From: an uncultured Planctomycetota bacterium
GTDB lineage: Bacteria; Planctomycetota; SKW154; DAOVDS01
NCBI GenBank assembly: GCA_964641955.1
Contig: CAZXNM010000010.1
Coordinates: 65 to 64,064, forward strand
DNA length: 64,000 bases
Reading direction: 5' to 3'
A model generated the notes under the pieces. The model saw only the letters and a program-made list of their open reading frames with translations. It was not told where the DNA came from and ran no database searches. A program made the translations under genes and the position numbers. This document shows positions 1,096 through 61,769 of this stretch, one piece after another. Within the stretch, counting starts at the first letter, position 1, and each line of letters starts with the position of its first letter.

Positions 1096-1999
1096 CCCGA
1101 CGCCACTCGTTGTCGGCCTTCACGCGGCGGCAGAGCTCGACGTGGATATCGACGACGTCCTGCGTGTCCGTCGAGTAGCCGCCTGCCAGCACGGCCGCGA
1201 CCGGAAGGCCATGCTTTTGTGCTGTGCCCAACACCAGTTCATCGCGCCGCCCGAGGCCTTCCTTGGTGAGTTCGAGGTCGCCGAGCTGGTCGCGCATGAA
1301 GGGGTCTGCGCCCGCGACGTAGAAGAGTAAATCGTAAGTGTGGCCTTCGAGCGCGGTGCCTATTCCCTCTTCGAGACGGGCGAGATACTCGTCGTCGCCC
1401 GTGTGGTTGTCGAGGCCGATGTCGAGACTGCTTCGCTCCTTGACGGGGTAGAGGCGCTCCTGGTGAATGGAAAGGGTGAAGACGGAGTCGTCGTTCTCGA
1501 AGATTTTTGCGGTGCCGTTGCCCTGGTGCAGGTCGCAGTCCACGACGAGGACGTCCCCGGCGAGGCCTGCCTTCTGCACCGCGCGGATGGAGACGCCTAT
1601 GTCGTTTATGAAGCAGAAGCCCTCGCCGTGGGCGGGGTAGGCGTGGTGGAATCCGCCGCCCAGGTTGACCCAGGCCTCTTGCCTCCTTATCGCCTCGGTG
1701 GCGGCGATTATGGAGCCGCCGGCGGCGGCGATTACCGCGTCGAGCGTGCGGCGCTCGAGCGGCGCCTCGAACCGCGCCACGGCGAGCATGGGCGATGCGG
1801 TGAGGGCGTCGAGCTCGTCGAGGTACCCGCCGTCGTGGACGAGCAGAAGCTCCTCGCGCGTGGCCGGGCGCGGCGGGGCGAAGTCTTCGCCGCCGGCGAT
1901 GCCCTGCTCTTTCAGCGCGTCGCGGACGCGGCGGTACTTGTCGGTCGGGAAGACATGTGTGGCCCAGCCCAGGTCGTACTCGTCGCCGTAGATGAACAT
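1085..1999 (-). CDS. Histone deacetylase-family protein (AcuC/acetoin-utilisation-like deacetylase)
   Basis: The ORF track extends to 2347, but the first ATG is at 1999 (MFIYGDEYDLG...). The HDAC core is present: GGGFHHA, CFINDIG, DCDLHQGNG and the YxxGGY end motif (LAGGYS). Confidence 0.85.
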   Translation of the reverse strand: MFIYGDEYDLGWATHVFPTDKYRRVRDALKEQGIAGGEDFAPPRPATREELLLVHDGGYLDELDALTASPMLAVARFEAPLERRTLDAVIAAAGGSIIAATEAIRRQEAWVNLGGGFHHAYPAHGEGFCFINDIGVSIRAVQKAGLAGDVLVVDCDLHQGNGTAKIFENDDSVFTLSIHQERLYPVKERSSLDIGLDNHTGDDEYLARLEEGIGTALEGHTYDLLFYVAGADPFMRDQLGDLELTKEGLGRRDELVLGTAQKHGLPVAAVLAGGYSTDTQDVVDIHVELCRRVKADNEWRRANA

Positions 2000-2051
2000 G
2001 CTTGCTCCGTCACAGTTAGGAGAAGGATTGTATTGGGGACGCGGCCCTCTG

Positions 2052-4301: not shown

Positions 4302-4409
4302 TCTCCCCGGCGAGCAGGCAGCATGGGCTCGCGTGCGCTCACCTGTTCCAAGTATACGACAATCCATGGCAAGCGCAACCTGAATTGGATAAAACCAATA
4401 CCGACGGGG

Positions 4410-6593
4410 TCACGCGTTCCCGGGGTCTATTTCGACCATTTCGCTCGATGCGAACCCGGCAGCCAGCTCGTCGAAGAAGAGGGAGTCTTCCACGGCAGTG
4501 GTGAGATACAGGTTCTCTTTGGCCCGGGTGAGCGCCACGTAGAATATCCGCCGCTCCTCCTGGTCATGCCGCTCCCGGGCTCGGAGCCGTTCGAGCATCT
4601 CCTCGTAGTCCGGCGTCGCTTTCTTCGCGCCCGGCAAGTGCTTGGCTATGACCCTTCCGGCTGCTGGTTTCTCGCCGGCAGTCGGCAGGTCGAGGAGGAA
4701 CGGTGCAGCCTTCCTGTATCTGGCCGGGCGGACGTCCGCGGCGAAGACGCTGTGGAATTCGAGGCCCTTGGCCTTGAAGGTGGTCAGGATTTTAACGGCA
4801 TCGCCCTCTTCCTGCGGGTCCGCCTCGGCCTCGCGCAACTCGCCTCTCCTGACCAGCCTGTGCAGGTAGTGGACGAATTCGGGCAGTCCGTTGAGCGGCG
4901 AGCGCGACTCGAAATCGACCGCGAGGTCGATTATCTTCGATATGTTGCTTACGCTCCGGAGCGCCGCCGGGGAGTCATCGCCCGAAAGGATGGAAAGCAG
5001 CCCGCTCTCGCAGAACGCGCGCTCCGCCAGCACGGGGAGCGGCTCGAGCATGCGAAGCGAATGCAGTCTCTCGATGCACGCGAGTGCATCGCCGACTCTT
5101 TCCCGCGCGGGCGGTTCGAGCTTCCCGATAGCTCCACCTTCTCGGAGCGCATCGAACAGCGAGACTTCCTCCCCGGACTGGTCACGCAGCCGACCGCGCT
5201 CAGCCGCTACCATCGCAAGCTGCGCCTGAGAAAGGGAAACGGGCGCGCGGGACAGGAGCCTCACTGCGGCCTGGTCGGCCGCGAGGTTCGAGGCGAGTTC
5301 GAGGCAGGCAAGCAGGTCGCGGACCTCTTCTCTCTCGAAGAAACCCGCCCCGAGGGCCGTGTACGGTATGCCCAGCCCCCGGAACTCGTCTTCGAGGCTC
5401 TTCGTGTGGGTCGTGGACCTGTAGAGCACGGCGATGTCGCCTGGATTTACGCCGGAGCTGATAAGGCACTGCGTCTCCTGCGCTATATATACCGCCTCCT
5501 CTTTTCTGGCGTCGAACCGCGCCATGCGGACGCGCCCGCCGCCGCTGTAGCCCTTGACGGGATTGGCGAGTTTAATCTCCCCCGCCCGCCCGGCGAAGTA
5601 GCTGTCACGTGTGATGGAATAATTCGCCAAGTCGAGCACGTCGTTGTACGAGCGGTAGTTGTCCGCGAGGAAGCGCTCATCGGCCGCGAACTCGCGGAGG
5701 TTCTCGATTCTCGCGCCGCGCCATTCGTAGATTGCCTGCTTGTCATCGCCCACGACGGTGACGTTGGAGAATCCGTCACGGGCGAGGAGTCGCAGCAGCT
5801 CGAGCTGCGCGAGGCTCGTGTCCTGGAACTCATCCACTATGATGTAGTCGAAGCGGGCGCACAGCCTCTTCCTCACTTCGTTGCTTCTGCACAGGAGATG
5901 ATACAGACCGTTGATAAGGTCCGTGTAATCCACTACTCCCGCGGCGCGCTTCGCACTCTCGAACTCGCGGAAGAGCCTTGCCGCAACACAGGCGACCTGA
6001 TGCTCGTATGCCGCCTGTTCCGTACCGCCGGGCGTGCCGCCGCACAGGGCTGCCTCGAACGAATCGGTCGTGTGAAGCTTCTCCCTCGCGGAATCGATAA
6101 TGCCCCAGCCGGCCTCGAGAATCGAGCCGAGCGAGCCGGGAGGAATCCGGGAGCGCTCTTCTCGGGACAGCGCCCCTCGCGCGAGGATGGAGGCTGCCAG
6201 GTCGTCTTTCAGCAGCATTATCTCGGCTTCGCCGGCCACGCGGTAAGGGACCGGCAGGCCCGCCAGCACAGGATATTCTCCGAGAACGCGCGCACAGAAC
6301 GAGTGGAAAGTATGGACCCAGAGCTGCTCCAGCTGCACGCCGCCCGCGAGCGCCTCGACGATGCGGTCACGCATCGAACCGGCTGCGCGGTCAGTGAAGG
6401 TGAGACAGAGCATGGATGAAGGCGAAGCACCGGGAATGTTCCTGAGCGCTTCGAGAAAGCGGAACGTGACGACGGTCGTCTTGCCCGTACCGGCGCCGGC
6501 CGTAACCTTGAGCGCGCGGTCGAACGGGAATCGGACCGCCTCGCGCTGCGCTTCGTTGAGGTCATCGAAAGTAAGCATGGCGTCACTCCGCAT
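4410..6593 (-). CDS. UvrD/PcrA-family ATP-dependent DNA helicase
   Basis: Carries helicase motif I (AGAGTGKTTV), motif II (VDEFQDTS) and the remaining UvrD-like motifs; length 727 aa. ATG at 6593, or alternatively at 6578. Confidence 0.85.
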   Translation of the reverse strand: MRSDAMLTFDDLNEAQREAVRFPFDRALKVTAGAGTGKTTVVTFRFLEALRNIPGASPSSMLCLTFTDRAAGSMRDRIVEALAGGVQLEQLWVHTFHSFCARVLGEYPVLAGLPVPYRVAGEAEIMLLKDDLAASILARGALSREERSRIPPGSLGSILEAGWGIIDSAREKLHTTDSFEAALCGGTPGGTEQAAYEHQVACVAARLFREFESAKRAAGVVDYTDLINGLYHLLCRSNEVRKRLCARFDYIIVDEFQDTSLAQLELLRLLARDGFSNVTVVGDDKQAIYEWRGARIENLREFAADERFLADNYRSYNDVLDLANYSITRDSYFAGRAGEIKLANPVKGYSGGGRVRMARFDARKEEAVYIAQETQCLISSGVNPGDIAVLYRSTTHTKSLEDEFRGLGIPYTALGAGFFEREEVRDLLACLELASNLAADQAAVRLLSRAPVSLSQAQLAMVAAERGRLRDQSGEEVSLFDALREGGAIGKLEPPARERVGDALACIERLHSLRMLEPLPVLAERAFCESGLLSILSGDDSPAALRSVSNISKIIDLAVDFESRSPLNGLPEFVHYLHRLVRRGELREAEADPQEEGDAVKILTTFKAKGLEFHSVFAADVRPARYRKAAPFLLDLPTAGEKPAAGRVIAKHLPGAKKATPDYEEMLERLRARERHDQEERRIFYVALTRAKENLYLTTAVEDSLFFDELAAGFASSEMVEIDPGNA

Positions 6594-50678: not shown

Positions 50679-52877
50679 ATGTCACAGGTCCTTACATGTC
50701 CGAACTGTGGTGCCACCGCCGAGATAGGCGAAGGCATAGAGAGCGGGCAGTTCGTCTGCGCGAAGTGCAGGAGCACCGTGGGATTCGGGCCCGGGGCGAC
50801 AATGGTTCTCGAAAGGACAGAAGTCAACGACGACATGGTCGGCAAAACTCTCGCCGGTTACGAAGTTAAAAGCCTGCTGGGCGCGGGCGGAATGGGCAAG
50901 GTCTACCTCGCCAGGCAGATTTCCATAGACAGGCCGGTAGCGCTCAAGATACTGGCTGCCCGCCTTGCGGAGAACGACAACTTCACAAAGCGCTTCATCA
51001 GGGAAGCTCAGGCCGCGGGCAGGCTCCTGCACCCCAATCTCGTAACAGTCTTCGACGCGGGAAAGGAAGGCAACACCTACTTCTTCTCGATGGAATACGT
51101 CAAGGGCGAGCCGGCATCGAAGCTTATATTCGAGACGGGAAAGGTTGCGCCGGTCGAGGCACTCAGGATAGTCAGGCAGGTCGCCGAAGCGCTGCGCTGC
51201 GCCTTCGAGCAGGGCATAATCCACCGCGACATTAAGCCCGACAACATAATGATAACCCCCTCCGGGCTGGTGAAGCTGGCCGACCTCGGGCTGGCCAAGC
51301 ACATAGAGGGCGAGGCGGGCGAGTCGGGGCTGACCGTGGCCGGCGCGGTCATGGGCACGCCGCACTACCTCGCGCCCGAGCAGGCCCGCAACTCGAAGGA
51401 CGTAGACCAGAGGGCGGACATATACTCGCTGGGCTGCACGCTTTACCATATGCTTACAGGCTGCGTGCCCTTCTCCGGAAGCTCGACGTACGAAATTCTC
51501 AGAAAGCACGAAATAGAAGAGCCGGAATTTCCCGAGGATTCCGGAATACCGGAGCAGGTTTGCCGGCTCGTGTGCTCAATGATGGCAAAGGACCCCGAAG
51601 ATAGACCCCAGACGCCAAGCGAGGTTCTCTCCGCCATAGACCAGATACTGGGCACCCCCAGCACGGCAGCCGGCGGCACCGCGCCGCTGACAGCGGGCGG
51701 CCTGCAGACGCCAACCGGGGCGATGCGGACTCCCACACCTGTGGAGCCGGGGTCAGGCGCCGCGACGCAGCCGGCGGAACCAGCGCGCAAGAAGAAGCGC
51801 CTCAGGTGGATACTCGCGGCAGTTATAGTCGTGCTAATCCTCTTTATGATTGCCTCGTCCGCAAAAGACAGGGAATCGGCGCGCAGGTTCGACGAAGCCC
51901 GGCAGTACGCGGAGAACAATCCCGCAGACATCCAAGGCACTCTGCGCCAGTACTACGATTTCGCCGGCGATTACAAGGGAACGAAATGGGCGAACAAGGC
52001 CCACGAGGCGATTTTCGCGGCTGTACAGGCCTACGCCGGGGAACACCCGGAAGACACGGAGAACACGCTGGCCATGTACAACGACGTTGTCACAAGGCTG
52101 GAGGGAACAACCTGGGCCACCAAGGCGAAGCAGGCGATACTCGATATCGGCTACTCCCAGCTCGAAGAAGCCCTTGAGAAGGGGCCGGGCAAGCTCGACA
52201 AGCTGCTGGAGCAGCTCAAGGAAATCAAGGAAGCCACGCCGGACGAGGAGTTCGCCGGCAGCGTGGACACGTGGATAGAGAGGCTCAAGGACGCCCGCGA
52301 CAAGGGCGTGGAACTCGAATTCAGGCGCTTCAAGGAAGATGTCGAGAAGCTCTTCCGCGAGGGCAAGTGGGGCGAGGCACTGGTGCGAGTCGAGAAGTAT
52401 CCCGGCGAGAAGGGTTTAGTCAGGATTCCGGCGCCTATACAGAAGTTCATGGAAAGAACGCTGGCTATGGCCGAAATCGAGAGAACCGCAAAAGGCTTCT
52501 ACAATGCTGCATTCAAGAAGGACTGGCTCGCCGTGGCCAAATTCATCGACCCCGAACAGGTCAAGCAAGATGACAAACTCCAGGGACTGCAGTTGGCGGG
52601 AAACATCGCGCTCGCGTGGACGCGCGCCAGGGACTACCGCGTAGACCGCATAGAAGTGTCCCTGCCGGATAACAAGGCTCAAATACACGGGACCGTCAAG
52701 CGCAGAGGAATCGGAGGCCGGACGGAAGATACAGACATGCCGGTCAGCAACAATGCGATAAGGCGCAACGGTAAATGGTACATTCGCCTCGACCCGAAGC
52801 CGGAAAGAGAGCACAGGGACCCCGAGAATACGACTCCCCGCCATCCCCGAAGACCGCGGCGCACTGACTCCAAGTAG
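50679..52877 (+). CDS. Ser/Thr protein kinase with an N-terminal zinc ribbon, Pro/Ala-rich linker, transmembrane helix and extracytoplasmic C-terminal domain
   Basis: CPNCG...CAKC; kinase subdomains (GAGGMGKVY, ALKIL, HRDIKPDNIM, DLGLAK, GTPHYLAPE); transmembrane helix ILAAVIVVLILFMIA. Confidence 0.85.
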   Translation: MSQVLTCPNCGATAEIGEGIESGQFVCAKCRSTVGFGPGATMVLERTEVNDDMVGKTLAGYEVKSLLGAGGMGKVYLARQISIDRPVALKILAARLAENDNFTKRFIREAQAAGRLLHPNLVTVFDAGKEGNTYFFSMEYVKGEPASKLIFETGKVAPVEALRIVRQVAEALRCAFEQGIIHRDIKPDNIMITPSGLVKLADLGLAKHIEGEAGESGLTVAGAVMGTPHYLAPEQARNSKDVDQRADIYSLGCTLYHMLTGCVPFSGSSTYEILRKHEIEEPEFPEDSGIPEQVCRLVCSMMAKDPEDRPQTPSEVLSAIDQILGTPSTAAGGTAPLTAGGLQTPTGAMRTPTPVEPGSGAATQPAEPARKKKRLRWILAAVIVVLILFMIASSAKDRESARRFDEARQYAENNPADIQGTLRQYYDFAGDYKGTKWANKAHEAIFAAVQAYAGEHPEDTENTLAMYNDVVTRLEGTTWATKAKQAILDIGYSQLEEALEKGPGKLDKLLEQLKEIKEATPDEEFAGSVDTWIERLKDARDKGVELEFRRFKEDVEKLFREGKWGEALVRVEKYPGEKGLVRIPAPIQKFMERTLAMAEIERTAKGFYNAAFKKDWLAVAKFIDPEQVKQDDKLQGLQLAGNIALAWTRARDYRVDRIEVSLPDNKAQIHGTVKRRGIGGRTEDTDMPVSNNAIRRNGKWYIRLDPKPEREHRDPENTTPRHPRRPRRTDSK

Positions 52878-52985
52878 CGCGACATGCCGCCGGCACACCG
52901 GTTGCATCTCAGTAATCGATTGACACGGAAGAGGTTGTGAATTAAAATCCGGCTCTGCTCGTTCCTTTGAATCACGGGATAAGAA

Positions 52986-54431
52986 GTGGAAGAATACTAC
53001 GAAGAAAGACTGAAGAAGGCTGAAGAACTCCGGGAAAAGGGCATTGACCCTTACGGCCACAGGTTCGACGGCACCGCGCCCATAGAAGACGTTGTCGCAA
53101 ACTTCACGGAGGGCAGCGAGGAGAAAATCCGCATCGCCGGCAGGATTATGGCCATGCGAAGCCACGGCAAGGCCGCCTTCTTCGACGTGCACGACAGGAC
53201 CGGCAAGGTACAGGCATACGTCAAGAGGAACGCGATTGGCGACGAGGCTTTCGAGGTCTTCAGGATGCTCGACATCGGGGACATTATCGGCCTCGAGGGG
53301 CCGGTCGCGAAGACGCGCACGGGAGAAATTACCGTCTTCGTCGAGAAGTTCGAGCTTCTCTCCAAGGCGCTCATGCCCATGCCGGAAAAGTGGCACGGCC
53401 TGAAGGATGTCGAGCTGAGGTACCGCAGGCGATACGTTGACCTGGTCGCCAACCCGCAGTCAAAAGAAACCTTCATGCGCAGAATAAAGGCCATTGCGCG
53501 CATAAGGGAAATCCTGCACGCACGCGGGTTCATCGAGGTGGAAACCCCGGTAATGCACTCGATACCCGGCGGGGCGGCGGCGAGGCCTTTCGTTACGCAC
53601 CACAACGCGCTGGATATCGACCTGTACCTGCGCATAGCCCTCGAACTACACCTGAAGCGCCTGCTCGTCGGCGGACTCGAGCGCGTCTTCGAAATCAGCC
53701 GCGTGTTCCGCAACGAGGGCATCTCCACGAGGCATTCGCCCGAGTTCACCATGCTGGAACTCTACCAGGCTTACGGCAACTACGAAACCATGATGGAGAT
53801 AACCGAAGAGGTTTTCTCTACGCTCGCCGTCGAGGTATGCGGCAGCCACGAAGTCACTTACGGAGGCAAGACTTTCGACCTCAAGCCCCCCTACCCTAAG
53901 CGCACTTACGCCGAGCTGTTCGAAGAGCACGCGGGTTTCTCCATGAACGACGAGGCGGCAGTGAGGAAGAACGTGGCCGAACTCGAGCAGACTGTTGACG
54001 GCGGCCTCAGCGTATGGGCCATGGTTGATGTGCTCTTCGAGCACTACGTTGAGCCGAAGCTCGACGGGCCGGTCTTCGTGATTGACTATCCTGTCGCCAT
54101 CTGCCCGCTGGCGAAGCAGAAGACGGGCAGTCCCGAAATCGCCGAGCGCTTCGAGCTTTACATAGGCTCCGTCGAAGTGGCCAATGCATTCACCGAGCTT
54201 AACGACCCAGTAGAACAGAGAAAGCGCTTCGAGGAGCAGGCGCAGCACCTGGCGGACGTGACCGGCAAAATCGACGAGGACTACGTTCTCGCCCTGAGCT
54301 ACGGGATGCCGCCTGCGGGCGGGCTCGGGATAGGAATCGACCGGTTGGTCATGCTTCTCACGGACAGTCATTCGATACGCGACGTAATCCTGTTCCCGCT
54401 CCTCAAACCTCCTGACAAGGCGAAACAGTAA
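52986..54431 (+). CDS. lysS: Lysine--tRNA ligase (class II)
   Basis: N-terminal anticodon-binding OB fold (RIMAMRSHGKAAFFDVHDRTGKVQ) and class II motifs 1-3 (the last being GGLGIGIDRLVMLLT). 481 aa, ends at TAA. Confidence 0.9.
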   Translation: MEEYYEERLKKAEELREKGIDPYGHRFDGTAPIEDVVANFTEGSEEKIRIAGRIMAMRSHGKAAFFDVHDRTGKVQAYVKRNAIGDEAFEVFRMLDIGDIIGLEGPVAKTRTGEITVFVEKFELLSKALMPMPEKWHGLKDVELRYRRRYVDLVANPQSKETFMRRIKAIARIREILHARGFIEVETPVMHSIPGGAAARPFVTHHNALDIDLYLRIALELHLKRLLVGGLERVFEISRVFRNEGISTRHSPEFTMLELYQAYGNYETMMEITEEVFSTLAVEVCGSHEVTYGGKTFDLKPPYPKRTYAELFEEHAGFSMNDEAAVRKNVAELEQTVDGGLSVWAMVDVLFEHYVEPKLDGPVFVIDYPVAICPLAKQKTGSPEIAERFELYIGSVEVANAFTELNDPVEQRKRFEEQAQHLADVTGKIDEDYVLALSYGMPPAGGLGIGIDRLVMLLTDSHSIRDVILFPLLKPPDKAKQ

Positions 54432-55877
54432 GTGTACAAGCTTTTCATAGCACTCAGGTACCTCAAGCGCAGAATAATCACCTACATCGCCATTGCCGGC
54501 GTCAGCGTGGGCGTCATGGTCCTGGTAATCGTGCTGTCGGTCATGGGCGGGTTCCAGCGGGAATTCCACGAGAAAATCCGCGGCACCATGGCCGATATCA
54601 TAATCACCCAAGAAGGCTTCGCAATGAAGAACCATGACGAGATAATGAAGAAGGTGGTGAAGATACCCGGCGTCAAAGGTGTCGCGCCCTTTGTCCAGAA
54701 CATTATCCTTATCAAGGGTCTTCACATCGACTTCGGGTTCATCAAGGGCATCGACCCGCTCGAAGAGCCGAAAGTGAGTCAAATCAGGGAATACCTTCTC
54801 CGCCGGGAAGAAACGGAGATTATCGCCCGCCACGACCAGTTGGATATCTGGATTGAAGATGCCGAAAGCACCGAGAAATTGGCAAAACAGAGGGGCATTG
54901 ACCTGTCGCAAAACCCGCTATACAAATCATATTTGCAGAGGCTCGATTCCTGGCGCGTTGAGTTCGATGAGGTCAGCGACAAGCATGACAAGCTCAACGA
55001 CCGCAAGCCCATGACTGATGAGGAAATCCTGCTGCTTTTCAGCGAAAGAAGCACGGACCTCCCGGGCATAATAGTCGGCATCGAGATGTTCAAGTACTAC
55101 CAGATGGAGGTAGGAAGCGAAGTCACGCTCCTGACGGCCGCAAGCCTCGACGTCGAGGAGGCGAGCCAGCAGCGGTTCGAGGTACTCGGCGCGTTCCGGA
55201 CCGGGATGTTCGAGAACGACTTCCGCTACGTCTACGCGCAGCTATGGGAAGCCCAGCAGTTCGTCGGCGTGCCGGACTGCGTCTCCGGCGTCAGCGTGAA
55301 GCTTGACGACTACCGCAGGGCGGACGAAATCAAGCCGGTCATCGAGCGCGCCATTAACGCCGACCCATACCTCGGCCTTGCCGTGCGCACGTGGAAGGAG
55401 CAGAACAAGACGCTCCTGCAGGCCGTTCAGATGGAGAAGTGGCTGCTGGCGTTCATAATCTTTTTCATCGTGATAGTCGCCGGCTTCACCATCGTATCCA
55501 TACTGGCCATGATGGTAATCGAGAAGACCAAGGACCTCGGGATTATCAAGTCGCTCGGCGGCACCATGACCGGCATCATGAGCATATTCCTCGTCGCCGG
55601 CTCCTTCATAGGAATCGTCGGCAGCGCAATCGGCACTTTCCTCGGACTCATGTTCGTCTACAACATTAACGAGATTGCGGACCTGATAGAGGACGTTACC
55701 GGCTACCACCCCTTCCCGCCGAACGTCTATTACCTGACCGAAATCCCGACGATAGTTGACTACGGCGAGATAGCACAGGTCGTTGTTCCCACTATCGTCG
55801 TTTCCTTTATTTTCGCGCTCTACCCGGCGCTGAAGGCATCGAGGCTTAATCCCGTCGAGGCGCTGCGTTATGAGTAA
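54432..55877 (+). CDS. FtsX-family ABC-transporter permease (LolC/LolE-like)
   Basis: GTG start directly after the lysS stop. N-terminal helix, a large periplasmic MacB-like domain, then three C-terminal helices (FtsX). 481 aa. Confidence 0.7.
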   Translation: MYKLFIALRYLKRRIITYIAIAGVSVGVMVLVIVLSVMGGFQREFHEKIRGTMADIIITQEGFAMKNHDEIMKKVVKIPGVKGVAPFVQNIILIKGLHIDFGFIKGIDPLEEPKVSQIREYLLRREETEIIARHDQLDIWIEDAESTEKLAKQRGIDLSQNPLYKSYLQRLDSWRVEFDEVSDKHDKLNDRKPMTDEEILLLFSERSTDLPGIIVGIEMFKYYQMEVGSEVTLLTAASLDVEEASQQRFEVLGAFRTGMFENDFRYVYAQLWEAQQFVGVPDCVSGVSVKLDDYRRADEIKPVIERAINADPYLGLAVRTWKEQNKTLLQAVQMEKWLLAFIIFFIVIVAGFTIVSILAMMVIEKTKDLGIIKSLGGTMTGIMSIFLVAGSFIGIVGSAIGTFLGLMFVYNINEIADLIEDVTGYHPFPPNVYYLTEIPTIVDYGEIAQVVVPTIVVSFIFALYPALKASRLNPVEALRYE

Positions 55878-56622
55878 GTCGGATGCCCCATCGCAGGCGA
55901 AAGGCGAGGAGCTGGTTCGGGCCACAGGCCTGAAGAAAAGCTACTTCGCCGGCAAGCGCGAGCTGCCGGTCGTGAAGGGCGTCAATATGAATATATCGCG
56001 CGGCGAAGTGCTCATGATATGCGGCCCGAGCGGCGCCGGCAAGAGCACTCTGCTGCATATGCTGGGCCTTCTGGACCCGCCGTCGGCGGGCGATGTCTTC
56101 TACGAGGGGGAAAACCTCACGTCGGCTCCACCCCGGCGCCAGTCTTCCGTTCGCAACCGCCGGATAGGCTTCGTGTTCCAATTCTATCACCTTCTGCCCG
56201 ACCTCGACGTCGTCGAGAATACGCTGCTTCCGCTCATGATAAGGGAGTCTACCTTCTCCTGGTTCGGGGCAAGGCGCCGCTACCGAGAGAAGGTCGAGAA
56301 GGTGCTCGCAAGCATGGGGCTGGGCGAGCGCCTCAAGCACAGGCCTTCTCAGCTTTCCGGCGGCGAGAGGCAGCGCGTGGCTATAGCGCGGGCGCTTATT
56401 AACGACCCGGAAGTCCTCTTCTGCGACGAGCCCACGGGCAATCTCGACACCAGAACTGCCGAGGAGATTCTCAAGGTGCTCTGGCGAATCAGGGAAGAGT
56501 TCAGCCAGACGCTCGTGGTCGTAACCCACAATCGCACCTTGGCCGAGCAGGGCTCGCGGCGCCTGAACATGATTGACGGCAAACTCTACCGCCCCTCAGA
56601 GCGCGACCTGCCATCCAGTTGA
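55870..56622 (+). CDS. lolD: ABC-transporter ATP-binding protein (LolD-like)
   Basis: Walker A GPSGAGKST, signature LSGGERQRVAIARAL, Walker B LFCDEPTGNLD. Overlaps the permease gene by 8 nt. Confidence 0.8.
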   Translation: MSKSDAPSQAKGEELVRATGLKKSYFAGKRELPVVKGVNMNISRGEVLMICGPSGAGKSTLLHMLGLLDPPSAGDVFYEGENLTSAPPRRQSSVRNRRIGFVFQFYHLLPDLDVVENTLLPLMIRESTFSWFGARRRYREKVEKVLASMGLGERLKHRPSQLSGGERQRVAIARALINDPEVLFCDEPTGNLDTRTAEEILKVLWRIREEFSQTLVVVTHNRTLAEQGSRRLNMIDGKLYRPSERDLPSS

Positions 56623-56779
56623 GACAACTGGGTTCTTGACTTTCCGCCTTTCTTTCTATAGACTCAATCTGTTTTACGGGCCCGTTTTCGCGCAAAACTG
56701 ATATTGTCTTGCCTGCCACGTCCAGCGGGAAAGGCCCGGCGGAAGCGTCCTTTCAGTCTGTGTCGTTTGGAGGTGCGCT

Positions 56780-57205
56780 GTGAAAAAGCTGTTGGCAGCC
56801 GTCGCGCTAATCGTCATCCCCGTGCTGGTGCATGCCGATGTCGTGGAACTGACTACGGGCGAGAAATTCGAAGGCAAGATAATTTCCAGGGATGAGTCGG
56901 GCGTTACGCTCAAAGTGCCGTTCGGCAAGATAATAATCGAAAACAAGTTCATCAAGTCCGTCCAGGAAGAAAAGACCGGCGGCGACAAGAAAGAAGATGC
57001 CGCGGAAAAAAAAGGCAACGACCAGGACTCGAAAGAGACGGAACTCGAGGAGAGGAAGCTCAAGACGCGCGTATCGCGCTGGATGAACAGCCGGAACAAG
57101 CTCATCTGCAGCAAGTGCGGCGGCGATGGCAAGAAAAAGTGCACGGCGTGCGGAGGGACCGGCCAGCAGTACGCAGACCCGTATAACAAGACGACGCGCG
57201 GGTGA
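56780..57205 (+). CDS. Secreted protein: N-terminal beta-module plus two DnaJ-type CxxCxGxG zinc-finger motifs; apparently the 5' fragment of a gene split by in-frame TGA codons
   Basis: GTG start with GGAGG at spacing 7. Signal peptide MKKLLAAVALIVIPVLVHA, then DVVELTTGEKFEGKII..., then CSKCGGDGKKKCTACGGTG. TGA at 57203-57205 and again at 57212-57214, with the same frame continuing afterwards. Confidence 0.4.
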   Translation: MKKLLAAVALIVIPVLVHADVVELTTGEKFEGKIISRDESGVTLKVPFGKIIIENKFIKSVQEEKTGGDKKEDAAEKKGNDQDSKETELEERKLKTRVSRWMNSRNKLICSKCGGDGKKKCTACGGTGQQYADPYNKTTRG

Positions 57206-57268
57206 ATTCCCTGAGGCGCCAAGGGAATCCTTGGCCCCTGCAAGTCTTGCGGGGGAACCGGCTTCAAC

Positions 57269-57595
57269 ATGAAGTACCTGAAGGTGTGTTTCTGGGAAAT
57301 GAAAACCAAGAAGTTCCGCGACGAGAAGACCGCATCCGCCGGAAAGGTTGACAAGTACCTGGACACACTGGCCCAGGAACTGCGCGGCGGCTCGAACGAG
57401 CACTCCTCGCATACGAAGCCTTTCCAGACCTATAAGATAGACGAGGTGACAGTCAAGGGTGATCGGGGCGTATCCAAGGTGACCGTAACCTACGAAGCCG
57501 CAGCGGGTTCCACAACCACGGAAGAAATCAAGTGGAAGAAAGTGGGAAGCCAGTGGTATCTGGCTTCTCCCTGCGACGAAGAGGACGACGAGTAG
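57269..57595 (+). CDS. Probable 3' continuation (C-terminal beta-rich domain) of the 56780 gene
   Basis: Same reading frame as 56780..57205. The intervening in-frame codons encode a third CKSCGGTG motif before the ATG at 57269. The product ends with the acidic tail DEEDDE. Confidence 0.35.
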   Translation: MKYLKVCFWEMKTKKFRDEKTASAGKVDKYLDTLAQELRGGSNEHSSHTKPFQTYKIDEVTVKGDRGVSKVTVTYEAAAGSTTTEEIKWKKVGSQWYLASPCDEEDDE

Positions 57596-57658
57596 CCGAA
57601 AGCAATTGCTGCGCCGTGGCAGCTCCGGTGGAATGAGACAAACGGAGGATGAGACCGG

Positions 57659-59170
57659 ATGGTCTGTCTGAAGGTCAAAGACGGTCCACATAAGGGCGTA
57701 ATCTACTCGCTCGAGGGGCACATCGTTACGATAGGCCGCGACAACGAGGCCCAGATACAGATTATGGACCAGGGCGTCAGCCGCCGCCATGCCGAGATTT
57801 TCGCCGTCGGCGAGATGTACTTCATACGCGACCTCGGCTCCCGAAACGGCACCTACGTCAACGAAGAGCGCATATCGGAAGAGTTGCTAAGGGAAGGAGA
57901 CCGGGTCAGAATAGGCCAGACGACTCTCGTTTTCGAAGGCAGGGCCCCGACCACGGGGGACCTGTCTCCGCAGATAGAGTTCTCCCACATCGACGCCGAG
58001 CCGAGCGCGACCATGGAGTTCCGTTTCGGCGTCATGGACTTCGCCGATATCGAAGAGCCCGACGAGACGAGGCGCACGGCGGTCACCGAATCCCAGAAAT
58101 CCAAGCAGCTCTCCGTGCTGTATCAGGTTTCGCGCGCCGTTTCGAACGAAACGGACTCCAAGAAGATGCTTTCCAGGATTGTAGTCCTCTCTTCGGAGGC
58201 AATCAACGCCGACCACGGATTCATATTCGTGAAAGACGACGAGTCATCCAAGCCCGAACTCAACCTCGAAGCAAGCTTCGAGAAGGAAGGCAGCTCCACG
58301 CCCGCCGTATCGACGAGCATAATTAAGCGCGTCGTCAAGTACGGCCGCGCCGTGCTCACTTCCGACGCGGGCACCGACGAGCGCTTCGGGGATAAGAGTT
58401 CCGTCATTATTCAGGGTGTCAAGTCGGTTATCTGCGCTCCGCTCGCGGCAATGGACAAGATAATCGGCGTGGTCTATCTCTCGAGCTCCGACGCCAGAGT
58501 GCAGTTCTCAACGGGCGACCTCGAACTTATCACGGCAATCGGCATACAGACCGGCATGGCCTTGAACGGCATTAGCATCGCCACGGAACAGCGCAAGATG
58601 TTTACCTCCATAATATCGACTCTTGTCAACGCTGTCGAGATGCGCGACCCCGCGCTGAAAGGGCGTTCGGCCCGCGTGTCGCGATTCGCCAGGGCAATGG
58701 CAAGAGCGCTCGACTTGCCTGCAACCGATGCGAACTCGGTCGCGCTCGCCGCTCTGCTCCATAATATCGGACGGCTGTCCATCTCGGAAGCCGACATCAT
58801 CCAGTCGCAGTCCGCCGCGACGCGAGAGGAGACTCTTGAATACAAGCAGGCCATGCGCTCGCAGGAACTGCTGCTGAACATCACGGGCCTTCGGGAGATT
58901 CTGCCCGCGGTCAAGCATTCTTTCGAGAAATTCGACGGCAGCGGATACCCGGACGGACTGGCCGGCGAAGAGATACCACTTCACGCCAGAATCATTGCCG
59001 CAGCCCACGCCTTCGACGAGATACTGCAGGGTTCCCCCGGCGAAAAACTCTCTCCGAAAGAAGCACTGTTCCAGTTGAACACCCTCTCGCAGCAGGGACA
59101 AATCGACCCCGACCTTGTGAAAGCTCTGGCAATAGCTTACCGGATGGGCCTGCTGGACATCGGCGAATGA
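57659..59170 (+). CDS. FHA-GAF-HD-GYP multidomain signalling protein with a degenerate HD-GYP domain
   Basis: FHA (TIGRDNEAQIQIMDQGVSRRHAEI...RDLGSRNGTYVN); GAF (residues ~170-300); HD-GYP with GYP intact (FDGSGYPDGL) but GHSxRV changed to GRSARV and HD changed to HN (LLHNIGRL). Confidence 0.75.
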   Translation: MVCLKVKDGPHKGVIYSLEGHIVTIGRDNEAQIQIMDQGVSRRHAEIFAVGEMYFIRDLGSRNGTYVNEERISEELLREGDRVRIGQTTLVFEGRAPTTGDLSPQIEFSHIDAEPSATMEFRFGVMDFADIEEPDETRRTAVTESQKSKQLSVLYQVSRAVSNETDSKKMLSRIVVLSSEAINADHGFIFVKDDESSKPELNLEASFEKEGSSTPAVSTSIIKRVVKYGRAVLTSDAGTDERFGDKSSVIIQGVKSVICAPLAAMDKIIGVVYLSSSDARVQFSTGDLELITAIGIQTGMALNGISIATEQRKMFTSIISTLVNAVEMRDPALKGRSARVSRFARAMARALDLPATDANSVALAALLHNIGRLSISEADIIQSQSAATREETLEYKQAMRSQELLLNITGLREILPAVKHSFEKFDGSGYPDGLAGEEIPLHARIIAAAHAFDEILQGSPGEKLSPKEALFQLNTLSQQGQIDPDLVKALAIAYRMGLLDIGE

Positions 59171-59261
59171 CAGAGAACCCCCGGCGGCAAGGACTTCGGA
59201 CGGTAATCCAGCGCACAGGGAGAGAATCCTGAAAAAATCGAGTAAAAGCGCTTCTGCCAGA

Positions 59262-61769
59262 TTGATTACAGGTTTCGGCGGCGCATCGCTTGCGCAGGCC
59301 ATTACCGATATCGTGCGTGTCTCCCCGGATGCCGAATACACTATAATAACCGCGCGTCCCCGTAGAGAACACGCCCTGCGTAAAATCCTCGAAGCCGAAG
59401 GTCTTGGAGACACACGGACGACAACTTTTACAGGATTTGCCGAGGAACTTATCCGGCAGTTCGGGTCCGGCGCAATCCCGGAAGCGGCAAAGATGCTGCT
59501 TTTCCTGAGAGCATTAAAAGACGCAGACCTGCCCGGCGAGTGGCGCGCATACACAGGCACAGCCCAAGGCGCGCAAACCCTCTTCGACATCCTAGACAGC
59601 CTTCGGTCCGCATCTCTACGGAGCGCGGACCTCGCGAAGCTGAAGGGCAAGCCGCCGGCGGCCAACTCTTTGGCGAAGCTCCTGAAAAACTATGAACAGC
59701 TTCTTCGTGAAGGGAAATTTTTCGACAATCATGACCTTATTGAGAAAGCGGCAGACGCAGTCCAGGCCGGGCAGGCGGTACTCACCCGCCGTTACCTGTT
59801 CGATTGCATCCACGATGCAGCCCCGGACGAGTTCAGGCTGGCGGTGGCCATCGCGCAGGCCGACATCGACTGCGTTTTCCTCTGCGACCCGTCGGCACCG
59901 CCGCCCCCGGCCCGCGCAGTCATTATCCGGACAGACAGGGAACTCGCGGCAAATCTGCCGGACCTGAAGTCCAAGACCGCACCCCGGCCACCGGGATACG
60001 AACTCGGCAGAAGTATCGCCGAAGGCTCTTTGGAAGGAAAGTCTGAGTTGCTTCAGTTCAATGATTTTGCCTCAGAATGCCGCGGTCTGGCCAGACGCGC
60101 GCGAGACATCGAGCTGGAAGAGGGCCTTTCCGAAAAAGATATCGCCTTCTTCTTTCAGGATTGGTCGGTGCAGGCCGACCTTCTGCGCTACGAACTGCAA
60201 AGAGCAGACTTATTGACAGAAGACATGCCGGCGCATCCGGCCCGTACAGCGCTCCTGCGCGAAATGAGGTTGATTACAGACCTGCTGGCCGAGCCGGACA
60301 GGATGGACCCGAGAGCCAGGATTGTCTCAGCCGGGCTGGCTGCAGATGAGTCACAGCTTGAGGGATTGCTTGCATCCATCCTGCCGCGCCGCGAGACTGA
60401 TTCCCTGCCTGAGCTTATAGCAAACGCCATTGAATCCTTACTTCCCGCCACTTCGGCTGCACAGAAAGAAGCGCTCGACAGATACATAGAGACAGCGCGG
60501 CTATTTAATGATTTTTTCGCGCCGGGAGCAGGCCCGGCGGCTCTGCGCGATTTTGCCTCAGCCGTTGATTTGCTCCAGACAAAGGCATGGCCCGGTGACT
60601 TGCTTCCTCGGGCCTTTCTTTCGCCTGACGCTCCTCCTGCTCGCTTTTACGATACCGTGTTCCTTCCGTGCCTTCTTTCCGAGACCCGGACAGGCGCGCC
60701 GCTCCCGCCCGGCATCCGGGAGCTAATGCCCGGATTTTCGCACCTGCTGCCGGGGCCCGTGCAACTGCCGGACGTGGCAAGCGCACAACTCCGCGAGCGC
60801 TGGGAGGCTGGCAGCGCCGCTGCAAGCGCCGCGAGGGTCATAATGTCTTTTCACCGGCAGTCGAGCGGCAGGCATATCGAGCCTGCTATCTGGCTCAGGG
60901 ACAAAGCCGGCTCAGCCCGACCAGGTCCGGAGGCGGCATGCAGCGGACCTCGCCGACCGCTTCCAGCGAAGCCCGTCGCAGACAGAGTCCCTGTGCCGCA
61001 AGTGCTCAGCGTCACGAGCATAAAGCAGTATTCGACGTGTCCGCACCGGTTTTTCCTCAACCGGATATTGCAAATAGCGCCGCCGCCCAGCGAACGCATG
61101 AAACTGGGCTCGCTCATTCACAGGGTCCTGGCGAGATTTCACTCTCCCGGAGAAACCGACTTCTCGCCAGAACGGCTCGCCCATCTTCTTGCCGAAGAGA
61201 CAGAAAGAGAAACCCTTCTTCCCGCGTCGCAGGAAGAGGCGCAAACTCTCCTGAGCGCCTACGCCGCGGATGCTACAACCGGCTCCAGACGAACGCTCAA
61301 GACCGAACACTCCTTCAGGATGGACTTCGCCGGCACGCGCGTATCAGGTCGGATAGACCGGATAGTTGCCGCGCCGGGAGGCATCAGGATAATCGACTAC
61401 AAGATATCCGGGTCCGGCAAGGTCAGGAAACACAGGAACGCGGTAATGGACAGGCTCGACGACGTGCAGTTGCCCCTGTATGTGCTTGCTGCCCGCGAGG
61501 CGGGCATGAAAGTGGCCTGCTTTTCCTATCTCTATCTCAACTACGAGGGCACCGGTCGGCCGGCCGAAGTCACGCTGCGCCTGGACGAAAGCGATGCTCA
61601 GGACTCGATAGGAGAGGCTGCGCTCCAGCAGTCCCTCGAACGAATCGAAAACGTGGTCGCCGAGATACTCGCGGGAAAGGAAACGTACGAGAGAGGCGAG
61701 AATGCGCCGTGCCGCGAGTCGCCCGCACGCTGCGACTACGCCGCCATGTGCCCCCTGATGACGAGTTGA
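59262..61769 (+). CDS. AddB-like protein: C-terminal PD-(D/E)XK nuclease with an Fe-S staple and a helicase-like N-terminal region lacking a Walker A motif
   Basis: C-terminal CPHRFFLNRIL ... GRIDRI ... IIDYK ... CRESPARCDYAAMCP follows the AddB/Cas4-type iron-staple nuclease layout. No GKT/S P-loop in the N-terminal 500 aa. Confidence 0.5.
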   Translation: MITGFGGASLAQAITDIVRVSPDAEYTIITARPRREHALRKILEAEGLGDTRTTTFTGFAEELIRQFGSGAIPEAAKMLLFLRALKDADLPGEWRAYTGTAQGAQTLFDILDSLRSASLRSADLAKLKGKPPAANSLAKLLKNYEQLLREGKFFDNHDLIEKAADAVQAGQAVLTRRYLFDCIHDAAPDEFRLAVAIAQADIDCVFLCDPSAPPPPARAVIIRTDRELAANLPDLKSKTAPRPPGYELGRSIAEGSLEGKSELLQFNDFASECRGLARRARDIELEEGLSEKDIAFFFQDWSVQADLLRYELQRADLLTEDMPAHPARTALLREMRLITDLLAEPDRMDPRARIVSAGLAADESQLEGLLASILPRRETDSLPELIANAIESLLPATSAAQKEALDRYIETARLFNDFFAPGAGPAALRDFASAVDLLQTKAWPGDLLPRAFLSPDAPPARFYDTVFLPCLLSETRTGAPLPPGIRELMPGFSHLLPGPVQLPDVASAQLRERWEAGSAAASAARVIMSFHRQSSGRHIEPAIWLRDKAGSARPGPEAACSGPRRPLPAKPVADRVPVPQVLSVTSIKQYSTCPHRFFLNRILQIAPPPSERMKLGSLIHRVLARFHSPGETDFSPERLAHLLAEETERETLLPASQEEAQTLLSAYAADATTGSRRTLKTEHSFRMDFAGTRVSGRIDRIVAAPGGIRIIDYKISGSGKVRKHRNAVMDRLDDVQLPLYVLAAREAGMKVACFSYLYLNYEGTGRPAEVTLRLDESDAQDSIGEAALQQSLERIENVVAEILAGKETYERGENAPCRESPARCDYAAMCPLMTS

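What the first reader, a model, noticed from the sequence alone, without database searches (positions are those of the whole stretch)
57195..57275. Two in-frame TGA codons five codons apart split a DnaJ-type zinc-finger secreted protein; a hairpin sits at the site
The 56780 ORF (signal peptide, beta-module, CSKCGGDG-KKK-CTACGGTG) stops at TGA 57203-57205. The same frame continues I-P-TGA-GAKGILGPCKSCGGTGFN-ATG..., encoding a third CxxCxGxG motif and then the 57269 ORF (a beta-rich C-terminal domain). This motif periodicity and the frame continuity indicate one ancestral gene. The stop region forms an inverted repeat: ATTCCCT-gaggcgcca-AGGGAAT. Either it is a pseudogene or a deliberately split gene, or the stops are bypassed. 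It is the second interrupted gene in this window, the other being at 40086.
Basis: seen in the sequence. Interest (0 to 1): 0.55.

Follow-up and report, generated by a model that had tools for sequence, protein, structure and literature searches.

The report
Selenocysteine pair in secreted zinc-finger protein
The two "stop" codons are almost certainly selenocysteine codons at the two cysteine positions of the third zinc-finger motif of one 271-residue exported protein, so this is an intact gene of an apparently undescribed selenoprotein family, not a broken or split gene.

Summary
The sequence is as described, except that the TGAs are three codons apart, not five. Read as U, they give U-I-P-U-G-A-K-G. 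This is the missing third of four CxxCxGxG motifs of a DnaJ/BSD2-type zinc finger. Ten distinct orthologs (42-90% identity, different metagenomes) all keep TGA at the first position. The second position is TGA in three and TGC/TGT in six, and TGA arose there at least twice. Downstream codons are under the same purifying selection as upstream ones (dN/dS 0.10-0.16). The window's ATG at 57269 is not conserved. An independent assembly gives the identical sequence.

Two adjacent hairpins follow the TGAs. Hairpin A (57218-57235) lies 19 nt from UGA1 to its loop and is frozen at synonymous sites. Hairpin B (57236-57254) lies 29 nt from UGA2 and is more stable in all three UxxU orthologs than in any UxxC ortholog. 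Each fits the published bacterial SECIS model for one UGA only.

The other interrupted gene (40086) is a DUF1028 protein whose TGA aligns with an invariant Cys, so this organism probably uses selenocysteine. Neither family is among the 119 prokaryotic selenoprotein families listed in a 2026 review. Sel genes and tRNA-Sec were not found in the window, and no protein-level data exist.

The parts
56636..56664 (+). Sigma-70-like promoter match (TTGACT-17-TAGACT) upstream of the gene. It follows a terminator-like hairpin (56613-56633) at the end of lolD.
   Evidence: This is a consensus match only. No promoter-like or terminator-like site lies between the two ORF halves.
56769..56773 (+). Shine-Dalgarno-like GGAGG, 6 nt before the GTG start.
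   Evidence: Read directly from the sequence.
56780..57595 (+). One coding sequence of 271 codons plus TAG, with UGA at codons 142 and 145. Public gene calls split it into a 141-aa and a 108-aa hypothetical protein.
   Evidence: Ten orthologs keep the frame open. dN/dS is 0.10-0.21 downstream of the TGAs.
56780..56836 (+). Predicted Sec-type signal peptide (MKKLLAAVALIVIPVLVHA | D). The A-D junction is conserved in all orthologs.
   Evidence: Inferred from the sequence pattern and alignment A2 (A19 and D20 invariant). No predictor was run.
56837..56965 (+). Small N-terminal beta-rich module (DVVELTTGEKFEGKIISRDESGVTLKVPFGKIIIENKFIKSV). It is followed by a charged low-complexity linker.
   Evidence: NCBIfam sub-threshold matches: PTPDL_fam N-terminus (E=3e-9) and Lepto_7_Nterm. 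It is conserved in orthologs. Unrelated proteins share only this module (L007-L011).
57107..57262 (+). DnaJ/BSD2-type cysteine-rich zinc-finger domain, residues 110-161. It has four motifs: CSKCGGDG, CTACGGTG, UIPUGAKG and CKSCGGTG.
   Evidence: With U read as C: Pfam BSD2_CRD E=0.0022 and DnaJ_CXXCXGXG E=0.044, both below the gathering score. A PDB profile search hits BSD2 (9ci1/6ekb, E=6.6e-4), with all four CxxC pairs aligned.
57203..57205 (+). UGA1, codon 142. Proposed selenocysteine at the first Cys position of motif 3.
   Evidence: TGA in 10/10 distinct orthologs. It aligns with Cys of BSD2 motif 3.
57212..57214 (+). UGA2, codon 145. Proposed selenocysteine at the second Cys position of motif 3.
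   Evidence: TGA in the window, L001 and L006. TGC/TGT in L005, L014, L018, L003, L012 and L004. The TGA state occurs in two separate clades.
57218..57235 (+). Hairpin A: GCCAAGG-GAAU-CCUUGGC. Proposed SECIS for UGA1. The stem starts 12 nt after UGA1 and the loop starts 19 nt after it.
   Evidence: -11.0 kcal/mol and 97% of cells paired in 10 orthologs. Stem codons are frozen: GCC 9/9, AAG 10/10, CTT 10/10, GGC 9 plus GGT 1. Only 7 of 53 conserved degenerate columns use a single codon, and CTT makes up 19% of Leu codons.
57236..57254 (+). Hairpin B: CCCUGCAA-GUC-UUGCGGGG. Proposed SECIS for UGA2. The loop starts 29 nt after UGA2.
   Evidence: -10.6 kcal/mol in the window and -6.4 in L001/L006 (the UxxU forms). 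-2.5 to -4.5 in the six UxxC orthologs. One pair shows A-U versus G-C covariation. It is part of the MFE fold.
57206..57228 (+). It is an alternative pairing that overlaps UGA2 and hairpin A.
   Evidence: 80% paired and not above shuffles. It is absent from the MFE fold. It would lie inside the ribosome when UGA1 is in the A site (inference).
57374..57565 (+). C-terminal alpha+beta domain, DUF4878/Rv0361-C-terminal-like.
   Evidence: Pfam DUF4878 E=0.011. NCBIfam Rv0361_Cterm E=4.8e-4. The AF2 model has helices followed by a beta-sheet but a pLDDT of only 50.6.

Best explanation
56780-57595 is a single gene for an exported protein of 271 residues. The protein has a signal peptide, a small beta module, a charged linker, a DnaJ/BSD2-type four-motif zinc finger and a DUF4878-like C-terminal domain.

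Both in-frame UGA codons are recoded as selenocysteine. They occupy the two Cys positions of the third CxxCxGxG motif (U142-I-P-U145-G-A-K-G). By analogy with DnaJ/BSD2, motif 3 pairs with motif 2 to form the second metal centre.

Proposed mechanism (inferred, not shown): SelB carrying Sec-tRNA(Sec) binds a SECIS hairpin in the coding sequence just downstream.
- Hairpin A (57218-57235) is placed for UGA1. Its stem starts 12 nt after the codon, close to the roughly 11 nt I recall for E. coli fdhF.
- Hairpin A is only 3 nt from UGA2, so it should be unwound when UGA2 reaches the A site.
- UGA2 is therefore most likely served by the adjacent hairpin B (57236-57254).
- The ancestral state of the family is UxxC. 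The window's lineage and the L001/L006 lineage each converted the second Cys codon to UGA, and in each case hairpin B is more stable.

Proposed function (inferred): a periplasmic thiol/selenol-disulfide oxidoreductase or redox-sensitive holdase, or a metal site with Se ligands.

Shown here: the conserved in-frame UGA, the Sec/Cys pairing, purifying selection across and beyond the UGAs, and the conserved hairpins with synonymous-site constraint.

Inferred: Sec rather than another amino acid, one hairpin per UGA, export, and function.
For: 1. Motif logic. The UGAs fall exactly on the Cys positions of the one motif missing from a four-motif finger. With U read as C, the profile aligns all four CxxC pairs to the solved BSD2 domain, and UIPU aligns with CWLC (Pfam).

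2. Conservation of the UGAs. TGA1 is present in 10/10 distinct orthologs from different metagenomes and MAGs at 42-90% identity. Every N-terminal gene call ends at ...RG.

3. Sec/Cys pair at position 2. It is TGA in 3 orthologs and TGC/TGT in 6. The 89-90% identical L005 has TGC. The TGA state lies in two separate clades.

4. Translation continues past the UGAs. dN/dS downstream of UGA2 is 0.10 (window vs L005) and 0.16 (L001 vs L006, both UxxU), against 0.17 upstream for the same pair. The ATG at 57269 is not conserved. No promoter-like or terminator-like site lies between the halves.

5. SECIS criteria, as quoted in PMC13188914: loop of 3-9 nt, stem of 4-16 bp, G in the first two loop positions, 16-37 nt from UGA to the loop, and MFE of -7.5 kcal/mol or lower.
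- Hairpin A with UGA1: loop GAAU, 7 bp, 19 nt, -11.0. Passes.
- Hairpin B with UGA2: loop GUC, 8 bp, 29 nt, -10.6. Passes.
- The crossed assignments (10 nt and 38 nt) fall outside the range.

6. RNA-level constraint. The stem codons of hairpin A are invariant, while other conserved Leu, Ala, Lys and Gly columns use 2-4 codons. Synonymous divergence (pS) is depressed between UGA1 and +21 codons.

7. The organism probably uses Sec. The DUF1028 gene in the same window has a TGA aligned to an invariant Cys (AGASC) in 10 full-length homologs and in PDB 2imh. It also has a SECIS-like hairpin 29 nt downstream.

8. TGA is otherwise an ordinary stop here. It ends 16 of the 51 long open frames of at least 300 codons.

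9. An independent assembly is identical.
Against: - No selA, selB, selD or tRNA-Sec was found in the window or in the related loci. The rest of the genome could not be searched.
- No Rfam family matches the hairpins.
- No ortholog has Cys at position 1. The Sec/Cys pairing for UGA1 therefore rests on the internal repeat and on the distant BSD2/DnaJ alignment.
- The Pfam matches to the zinc-finger models are below the gathering score.
- Hairpin A shows conservation, not covariation.
- The link between hairpin B and UGA2 rests on two independent lineages. In L001/L006 hairpin B alone is -6.4 kcal/mol, weaker than the -7.5 criterion.
- One ortholog (L002) has a 1-nt deletion at position 2.
- There is no protein-level evidence.
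Confidence: 0.85

Rival explanations
1. The UGAs are recoded, but one or both are not read as selenocysteine. They could be read as Cys by a SelC*-type tRNA(ReC) acting with the same SECIS, or by near-cognate read-through (Trp or Cys).
For: PMC13582414 reports that genomes with UXXU motifs are enriched in tRNA(ReC), which decodes UGA as Cys in the presence of a SECIS. Position 2 switches freely between TGA and TGY, as expected if the product were much the same.
Against: Position 1 is TGA in 10/10 orthologs down to 42% identity and is never TGY. That points to selection for something Cys cannot supply. No tRNA of any kind was found in the window or the loci, so this rival is untested rather than supported.
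Confidence: 0.08
2. Only UGA1 is a Sec codon. The window's second TGA is a recent nonsense mutation (TGC to TGA), so in this genome the protein is truncated after U-I-P and the gene is dying.
For: The closest relative, L005 (89-90% identical), has TGC at this codon. Hairpin A is too close (3 nt) to serve UGA2 under the E. coli spacing rule. One ortholog (L002) carries a frameshift at this same codon.
Against: The same codon is TGA in an independent clade (L001/L006). In that clade the downstream 95 codons have dN/dS of 0.16, equal to the upstream value. The window-L005 downstream dN/dS is 0.10, with no further defects. The window has the most stable hairpin B of all orthologs, placed correctly for UGA2.
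Confidence: 0.05
3. These are two separate genes (a deliberately split gene). A 141-aa protein ends at TGA 57203, and a 108-aa protein starts at ATG 57269. This is how public gene calls annotate it.
For: Public gene calls list a 141-aa and a 108-aa protein. An ATG exists at 57269 in the window.
Against: The ATG is not conserved in 9 other orthologs. The 21 codons between TGA1 and that ATG are conserved at the protein level (dN/dS 0.13-0.24) and encode motifs 3 and 4 of the finger. A split would leave neither product with a complete four-motif domain. No promoter-like site lies between the halves.
Confidence: 0.02
4. Sequencing or assembly error, or a general reassignment of TGA (genetic code 4 or 25).
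For: None specific. MAG assemblies do contain errors, and L002 has a likely indel.
Against: An independent Logan assembly gives the identical sequence. The TGA is conserved in 10 orthologs from different samples. TGA closes 16 of 51 long open frames in the window, so it is not a general sense codon.
Confidence: 0.01

Closest known systems
Bacterial selenoproteins with UxxC/UxxU motifs: Prx-like thiol:disulfide oxidoreductase, the NF041115 metal-binding protein, FmdB-family TIGR02605, and UXXU-type group 4 [NiFeSe] hydrogenases
   Same: An in-frame UGA replaces a Cys of a CxxC motif. UxxC and UxxU forms coexist among relatives. A stem-loop with G at the start of its apical loop lies in the coding sequence just downstream (PMC13188914 Table 1; PMC13582414).
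   Different: The protein fold and family differ: this is a DnaJ/BSD2-type CxxCxGxG finger in an exported protein. It is not among the 119 families listed. For the hydrogenases a single SECIS serving both UGAs was proposed. Here two adjacent hairpins each fit the spacing window of one UGA.
DnaJ central cysteine-rich domain (PF00684) and J-domain-less relatives: BSD2 (PF25436; PDB 6ekb, 9ci1), ZnJ2, LQY1 and OR
   Same: Four CxxCxGxG motifs with similar spacing, and all four CxxC pairs align to BSD2. Members bind zinc, and several have thiol-disulfide oxidoreductase, isomerase or holdase activity (PMC5818400; PMC9225386). There is no J domain, as in BSD2, ZnJ2 and LQY1.
   Different: Motif 3 carries Sec instead of Cys, and its sixth position is Ala rather than Gly. 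The protein is bacterial and has a signal peptide. It has different flanking domains (an N-terminal beta module and a DUF4878-like C-terminus). The profile scores are below Pfam's gathering thresholds.
E. coli fdhF-type bacterial SECIS / the bSECIS consensus model
   Same: A hairpin in the coding sequence immediately 3' of UGA. Hairpin A's stem starts 12 nt after UGA1, against about 11 nt in fdhF (from my own knowledge). The loop starts with G, and stem length, loop length, spacing and energy meet the consensus quoted.
   Different: There is no sequence similarity and no Rfam match. Two hairpins lie in tandem. SelB binding has not been tested.
NF041197 dual CXXC motif small selenoprotein (OS_HP3), 'RxU' motif
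   Same: A Cys-rich selenoprotein in which Sec is preceded by R-x (here R-G-U).
   Different: No NCBIfam match even at E<=1. The size and architecture differ. It is not a member.

Membership tests
Bacterial selenoprotein gene (UGA recoded through SECIS and SelB) | In-frame UGA conserved among orthologs, with protein-level conservation on both sides | tested here: met
   TGA1 is present in 10/10 orthologs. dN/dS is 0.10-0.21 downstream and 0.10-0.23 upstream.
Bacterial selenoprotein gene (UGA recoded through SECIS and SelB) | Sec/Cys pair: the UGA aligns with a Cys codon in homologs | tested here: met
   Position 2 is TGC/TGT in 6 orthologs. Both positions align with the Cys residues of BSD2 motif 3. 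For position 1 no close Cys-form exists: a search of 1.84e9 cluster representatives gave only 5 hits, none a full-length form.
Bacterial selenoprotein gene (UGA recoded through SECIS and SelB) | Downstream stem-loop meeting the bSECIS consensus (loop 3-9 nt, stem 4-16 bp, G in the first two loop positions, 16-37 nt from UGA, MFE <= -7.5) | tested here: met
   Hairpin A with UGA1: GAAU loop, 7 bp, 19 nt, -11.0. Hairpin B with UGA2: GUC loop, 8 bp, 29 nt, -10.6 (criteria). bSECISearch itself was not run. In L001/L006, hairpin B alone is -6.4.
Bacterial selenoprotein gene (UGA recoded through SECIS and SelB) | selA, selB, selC (tRNA-Sec) and selD present in the same genome | not testable with these tools
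   None was found in the 64-kb window or the related loci. Indirect support comes from a second TGA/Cys gene (DUF1028) in the window.
Bacterial selenoprotein gene (UGA recoded through SECIS and SelB) | Selenium in the protein (75Se labelling or mass spectrometry) | not testable with these tools
   This needs an experiment.
Rfam SECIS families | Covariance-model match | tested here: not met
   There were no matches at the gathering score in the window. At E<=10 on 57150-57350 only irrelevant chance hits appeared. Bacterial SECIS elements are known to be too diverse for one model.
DnaJ/BSD2-type cysteine-rich zinc-finger domain (PF00684 / PF25436) | Four CxxCxGxG repeats | tested here: met
   Residues 110-117, 121-128, 142-149 (UIPUGAKG, with Ala at the sixth position) and 154-161. 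This holds only if U is counted as a Cys equivalent.
DnaJ/BSD2-type cysteine-rich zinc-finger domain (PF00684 / PF25436) | Profile match above the curated threshold | tested here: inconclusive
   BSD2_CRD scores 18.6 bits against a cutoff of 27 (E=0.0022). DnaJ_CXXCXGXG scores 14.5 bits against 32.7. The PDB profile search gives E=6.6e-4 to BSD2, spanning all four motifs.
DnaJ/BSD2-type cysteine-rich zinc-finger domain (PF00684 / PF25436) | Binds two zinc ions through the eight Cys residues | not testable with these tools
Metal content needs an experiment.
DnaJ (Hsp40) proper | N-terminal J domain | tested here: not met
   No J-domain match in Pfam or NCBIfam. The N-terminus is a signal peptide followed by a beta module.
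NF041197 dual CXXC motif small selenoprotein | NCBIfam HMM match | tested here: not met
   It is not among the hits at E<=1.
Pseudogene | Relaxed selection downstream of the lesion, and a lesion not shared by orthologs | tested here: not met
   dN/dS is 0.10-0.16 downstream, and the TGA is shared by all orthologs.

The most novel reading that the evidence does not exclude
This is a previously unlisted, obligately Sec-containing family. In it, selenocysteine replaces one or both Cys ligands of the second metal centre of a DnaJ-type zinc finger in an exported protein. The closely spaced UGAs of the UxxU forms are each decoded by their own SECIS hairpin, arranged in tandem. The second hairpin was strengthened each time the second Cys codon became UGA. 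The sister pairs UxxC/UxxU (L005 vs the window) would then be a natural experiment on how bacteria decode adjacent Sec codons. The 2026 hydrogenase paper left that question open.
Probability: 0.35. Interest if true: 0.75.

Novelty: new member of a known kind. Interest (0 to 1): 0.6.

Why it matters
1. Annotation. Gene callers split this gene, and every ortholog found, into two hypothetical proteins. The same happens to the DUF1028 gene in this window. Recognising the recoding restores two complete proteins and flags the lineage as a selenocysteine user.

2. Selenoprotein biology. Neither a DnaJ/BSD2-type zinc finger nor DUF1028 appears among the 119 prokaryotic selenoprotein families compiled in 2026. 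Sec inside a CxxCxGxG zinc-finger motif would be a new chemical context: either Se as a metal ligand or a selenol-based redox switch. It sits in motif 3. In DnaJ, motifs 2 and 3 form the second zinc centre, which has been studied for thiol-disulfide oxidoreductase activity (the Shi et al. 2005 title cited, plus my own knowledge).

3. Mechanism. How two UGAs nine nucleotides apart are both decoded is an open question for UxxU proteins. This family offers UxxC and UxxU sister sequences with two distinguishable hairpins, so the question can be tested directly with reporters.

Tried and rejected
- Rfam at gathering score on the whole window, and at E<=10 on 57150-57350: nothing relevant.
- ARAGORN on the window and on 10 loci: no tRNA genes, so no tRNA-Sec.
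- Pfam scan of about 50 window ORFs for SelA, SelB or SelD: none found.
The zinc finger therefore could not be modelled.
- The AF2 model of the C-terminal 126 residues had a pLDDT of 50.6. It was judged unusable and no fold search was run.
- DNA for P0001's contig was unavailable.
- A mechanical scan for other ORF pairs joined by an in-frame TGA was too noisy in this GC-rich window. The striking 749+785-codon pair on the minus strand is just the neighbouring UvrD and peptidase C25 genes, and the 1475-aa plus-strand ORF opposite them has no Pfam hit.
- General TGA reassignment was rejected.
- NF041197 membership was rejected.
- The taxonomy of the source could not be established. The related MAG is labelled only 'bacterium', and DUF1570, WD40, Ser/Thr-kinase and Lol genes merely suggest a diderm, possibly related to the PVC group.
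Full report
**What is in the sequence.** The ORF starting at GTG 56780 is preceded by GGAGG at 56769-56773 and runs to TGA 57203-57205. The same frame reads ATT CCC TGA (57212-57214). It then continues through GAKGILGPCKSCGGTGFN and ATG 57269 to TAG 57593-57595. The two TGAs are three codons apart, not five.

Written with U for TGA, the stretch is U-I-P-U-G-A-K-G. This has the form CxxCxGxG and sits between CTACGGTG and CKSCGGTG. The joined protein therefore has four such motifs, at residues 110-117, 121-128, 142-149 and 154-161. That is the full complement of a DnaJ/BSD2-type zinc finger.

With U read as C, the profile evidence is as follows:
- Pfam gives BSD2_CRD (E=0.0022) and DnaJ_CXXCXGXG (E=0.044) across the junction. 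Both are below the gathering scores.
- A profile of five orthologs hits the solved BSD2 domain (9ci1, 6ekb; E=6.6e-4). All four CxxC pairs are aligned, and UIPU lies over BSD2's CWLC.

**Relatives.** The family is rare.
- A search of 5.8 billion proteins found only N-terminal fragments, each ending at ...RG.
- An exhaustive HMMER search of 1.84 billion cluster representatives with the C-terminal part found five hits. None is a full-length Cys form.
- Fetching the DNA gave ten distinct orthologs at 42-90% identity. They come from a GTDB MAG, an NCBI MAG, Guaymas Basin sediment, a hydrothermal vent and other JGI metagenomes.

Position 1 is TGA in all ten. Position 2 is TGA in three (window, L001, L006) and TGC/TGT in six (L005, L014, L018, L003, L012, L004). 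L002 has a one-base deletion there.

L005 is 89-90% identical to the window and has TGC where the window has TGA. In a neighbour-joining tree the window is sister to L005 inside a UxxC group, and L001/L006 form a separate UxxU clade. The second Cys codon therefore became TGA at least twice.

The window's ATG 57269 is AAG, GCG, CCG, CAG or CCT in the others. Synteny is shared by the window, L018 and L001: Ser/Thr kinase, LysS, LolE, LolD, this gene, FHA-GAF-HD protein, PD-(D/E)XK nuclease. L004 shares it in part.

**Is the downstream part translated?** Purifying selection continues past both TGAs.
- Downstream of UGA2, dN/dS is 0.10 for window vs L005.
- For L001 vs L006, which are both UxxU, it is 0.16 downstream and 0.17 upstream.
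- The 20 codons between UGA1 and the window's ATG have dN/dS of 0.13-0.24.

There is a promoter-like site and a terminator-like site before the gene, and none between the halves. TGA closes 16 of the 51 long open frames in the window, so the genetic code is standard. An independent Logan assembly of run SRR14802574 is identical over the region. Pseudogene, split gene, assembly error and code reassignment are thus all poorly supported.

**RNA structure.** The MFE fold of 57195-57290 contains two adjacent hairpins (z=-2.06 against shuffles):
- Hairpin A: GCCAAGG-GAAU-CCUUGGC, 57218-57235.
- Hairpin B: CCCUGCAA-GUC-UUGCGGGG, 57236-57254.

Hairpin A is 97% paired across the ten orthologs. It shows no compensatory changes, but its stem codons are frozen: GCC 9/9, AAG 10/10, CTT 10/10, and GGC 9 with GGT 1 (the GGT keeps a G-U pair). 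By comparison, only 7 of 53 fully conserved degenerate columns use a single codon. The six other conserved Leu columns use 3-4 codons each. CTT is 19% of Leu codons overall, and none of the window gene's other 14 Leu codons is CTT. Synonymous divergence (pS) is also depressed in this segment. This indicates selection on the RNA.

I compared the hairpins with the bacterial SECIS consensus as quoted in the 2026 review. It requires a loop of 3-9 nt, a stem of 4-16 bp, G in the first two loop positions, 16-37 nt from UGA to the loop, and an MFE of -7.5 or lower.
- Hairpin A fits UGA1 (19 nt, -11.0) but not UGA2 (10 nt).
- Hairpin B fits UGA2 (29 nt, -10.6) but not UGA1 (38 nt).

Hairpin B is -10.6, -6.4 and -6.4 kcal/mol in the three UxxU sequences. 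It is -2.5 to -4.5 in the six UxxC sequences and 0 in L002. Between the window and L005 the stem difference is a single GGG/GAG change. One pair of hairpin B shows A-U versus G-C covariation.

This supports one hairpin per UGA, but it rests on only two independent lineages, and I rate that detail at roughly even odds.

**Does the organism use selenocysteine?** No tRNA-Sec or Sel genes lie in the window or the related loci. However, the other interrupted gene is informative. On the minus strand, 40217-39357 encodes a DUF1028 protein (Pfam E=9e-42, spanning the TGA).
- Its TGA at 40088-40086 aligns with the Cys of an invariant AGASC motif in ten full-length homologs and in PDB 2imh.
- Close orthologs are truncated at the same point.
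- A 12-bp hairpin with loop GGUCG lies 29 nt downstream.

Two Sec/Cys genes within 64 kb make Sec usage very likely.

**Comparison with what is known.** UxxC and UxxU selenoproteins and coding-region SECIS elements are well known. The 2026 review lists 119 prokaryotic families, including three with UxxU. A 2026 paper describes UXXU group 4 hydrogenases. It proposes a single SECIS for both UGAs and reports enrichment of a tRNA that reads UGA as Cys. No DnaJ/BSD2-type finger and no DUF1028 family appears in that list. NCBIfam returns no selenoprotein model for the joined protein, and public gene calls split the gene.

DnaJ-like fingers bind zinc, and several show thiol-disulfide oxidoreductase, isomerase or holdase activity. 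From my own knowledge, DnaJ's second zinc centre is formed by motifs 2 and 3. The Shi et al. 2005 title in the reference list links Zn2 cysteines to the oxidoreductase activity. Sec in motif 3 fits a redox role.

**Verdict.** This is an intact gene for an exported selenoprotein of an apparently unlisted family. Its mechanism is the known bacterial Sec recoding, with a possibly new tandem-hairpin arrangement. I put about 0.85 on one gene with both UGAs recoded as Sec. The remainder is split between recoding to another residue, a recent truncation at UGA2, and the minor rivals.

Noticed in passing
window 40217-39357 (minus strand); TGA at 40088-40086; hairpin at 40068-40039: The other 'interrupted gene' is a DUF1028 (Ntn-hydrolase-like) protein with a signal peptide. 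Its in-frame TGA aligns with the Cys of an invariant 'AGASC' motif in 10 full-length homologs and in PDB 2imh. Close orthologs (89% and 69% identical) are truncated at the same spot. A 12-bp hairpin with loop GGUCG starts 18 nt after the UGA, and its loop starts 29 nt after it. This is probably a second selenoprotein, and DUF1028 is not among the 119 families in the 2026 review.
   Followed up: partly
L002 4421-4440 (GCA_026418755.1, JAOAAR010000164.1): This ortholog keeps TGA1 but has a one-base deletion exactly at the second Cys/Sec codon (CCC TG- GTC). That shifts the frame, and the public gene call restarts there (MVAKGVLGPC...). It could be an assembly error or a real inactivation. I could not decide which.
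   Followed up: partly
L001 10430-10447 and L006 979-996: In the independent UxxU clade, hairpin A is weakened (-8.9 and -6.6 kcal/mol, against -11.0 in most other orthologs and -9.6 in L004). Hairpin B and the following bases are identical between the two sequences. This hints that the balance between the two hairpins shifts when the second UGA is present.
   Followed up: no
window 50679-61769; L018 1881-12989; L001 3878-15114: The gene order is conserved around the selenoprotein gene: Ser/Thr kinase, LysS, LolE(-LolE), LolD, this gene, FHA-GAF-HD-domain protein, PD-(D/E)XK nuclease. The repeated adjacency to the Lol lipoprotein-export genes may be functional, or it may simply be inherited.
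   Followed up: partly
window 1992-6419 (+) versus 2055-4367 and 4413-6593 (-): A 1475-aa open frame on the plus strand has no Pfam hit. It lies opposite two real minus-strand genes, a peptidase C25 protein and a UvrD helicase. It is a spurious GC-rich shadow ORF. The in-frame TGA between the two minus-strand genes is an ordinary stop.
   Followed up: yes
L007-L011 (metagenome loci): The N-terminal module (signal peptide plus ADV-x-L-T-S/T-G-E-K-L-E-G-K-I) occurs on its own at the start of otherwise unrelated secreted proteins. It also gives sub-threshold matches to the PTPDL-family and Leptospira N-terminal models. It seems to be a mobile N-terminal module of unknown role.
   Followed up: no
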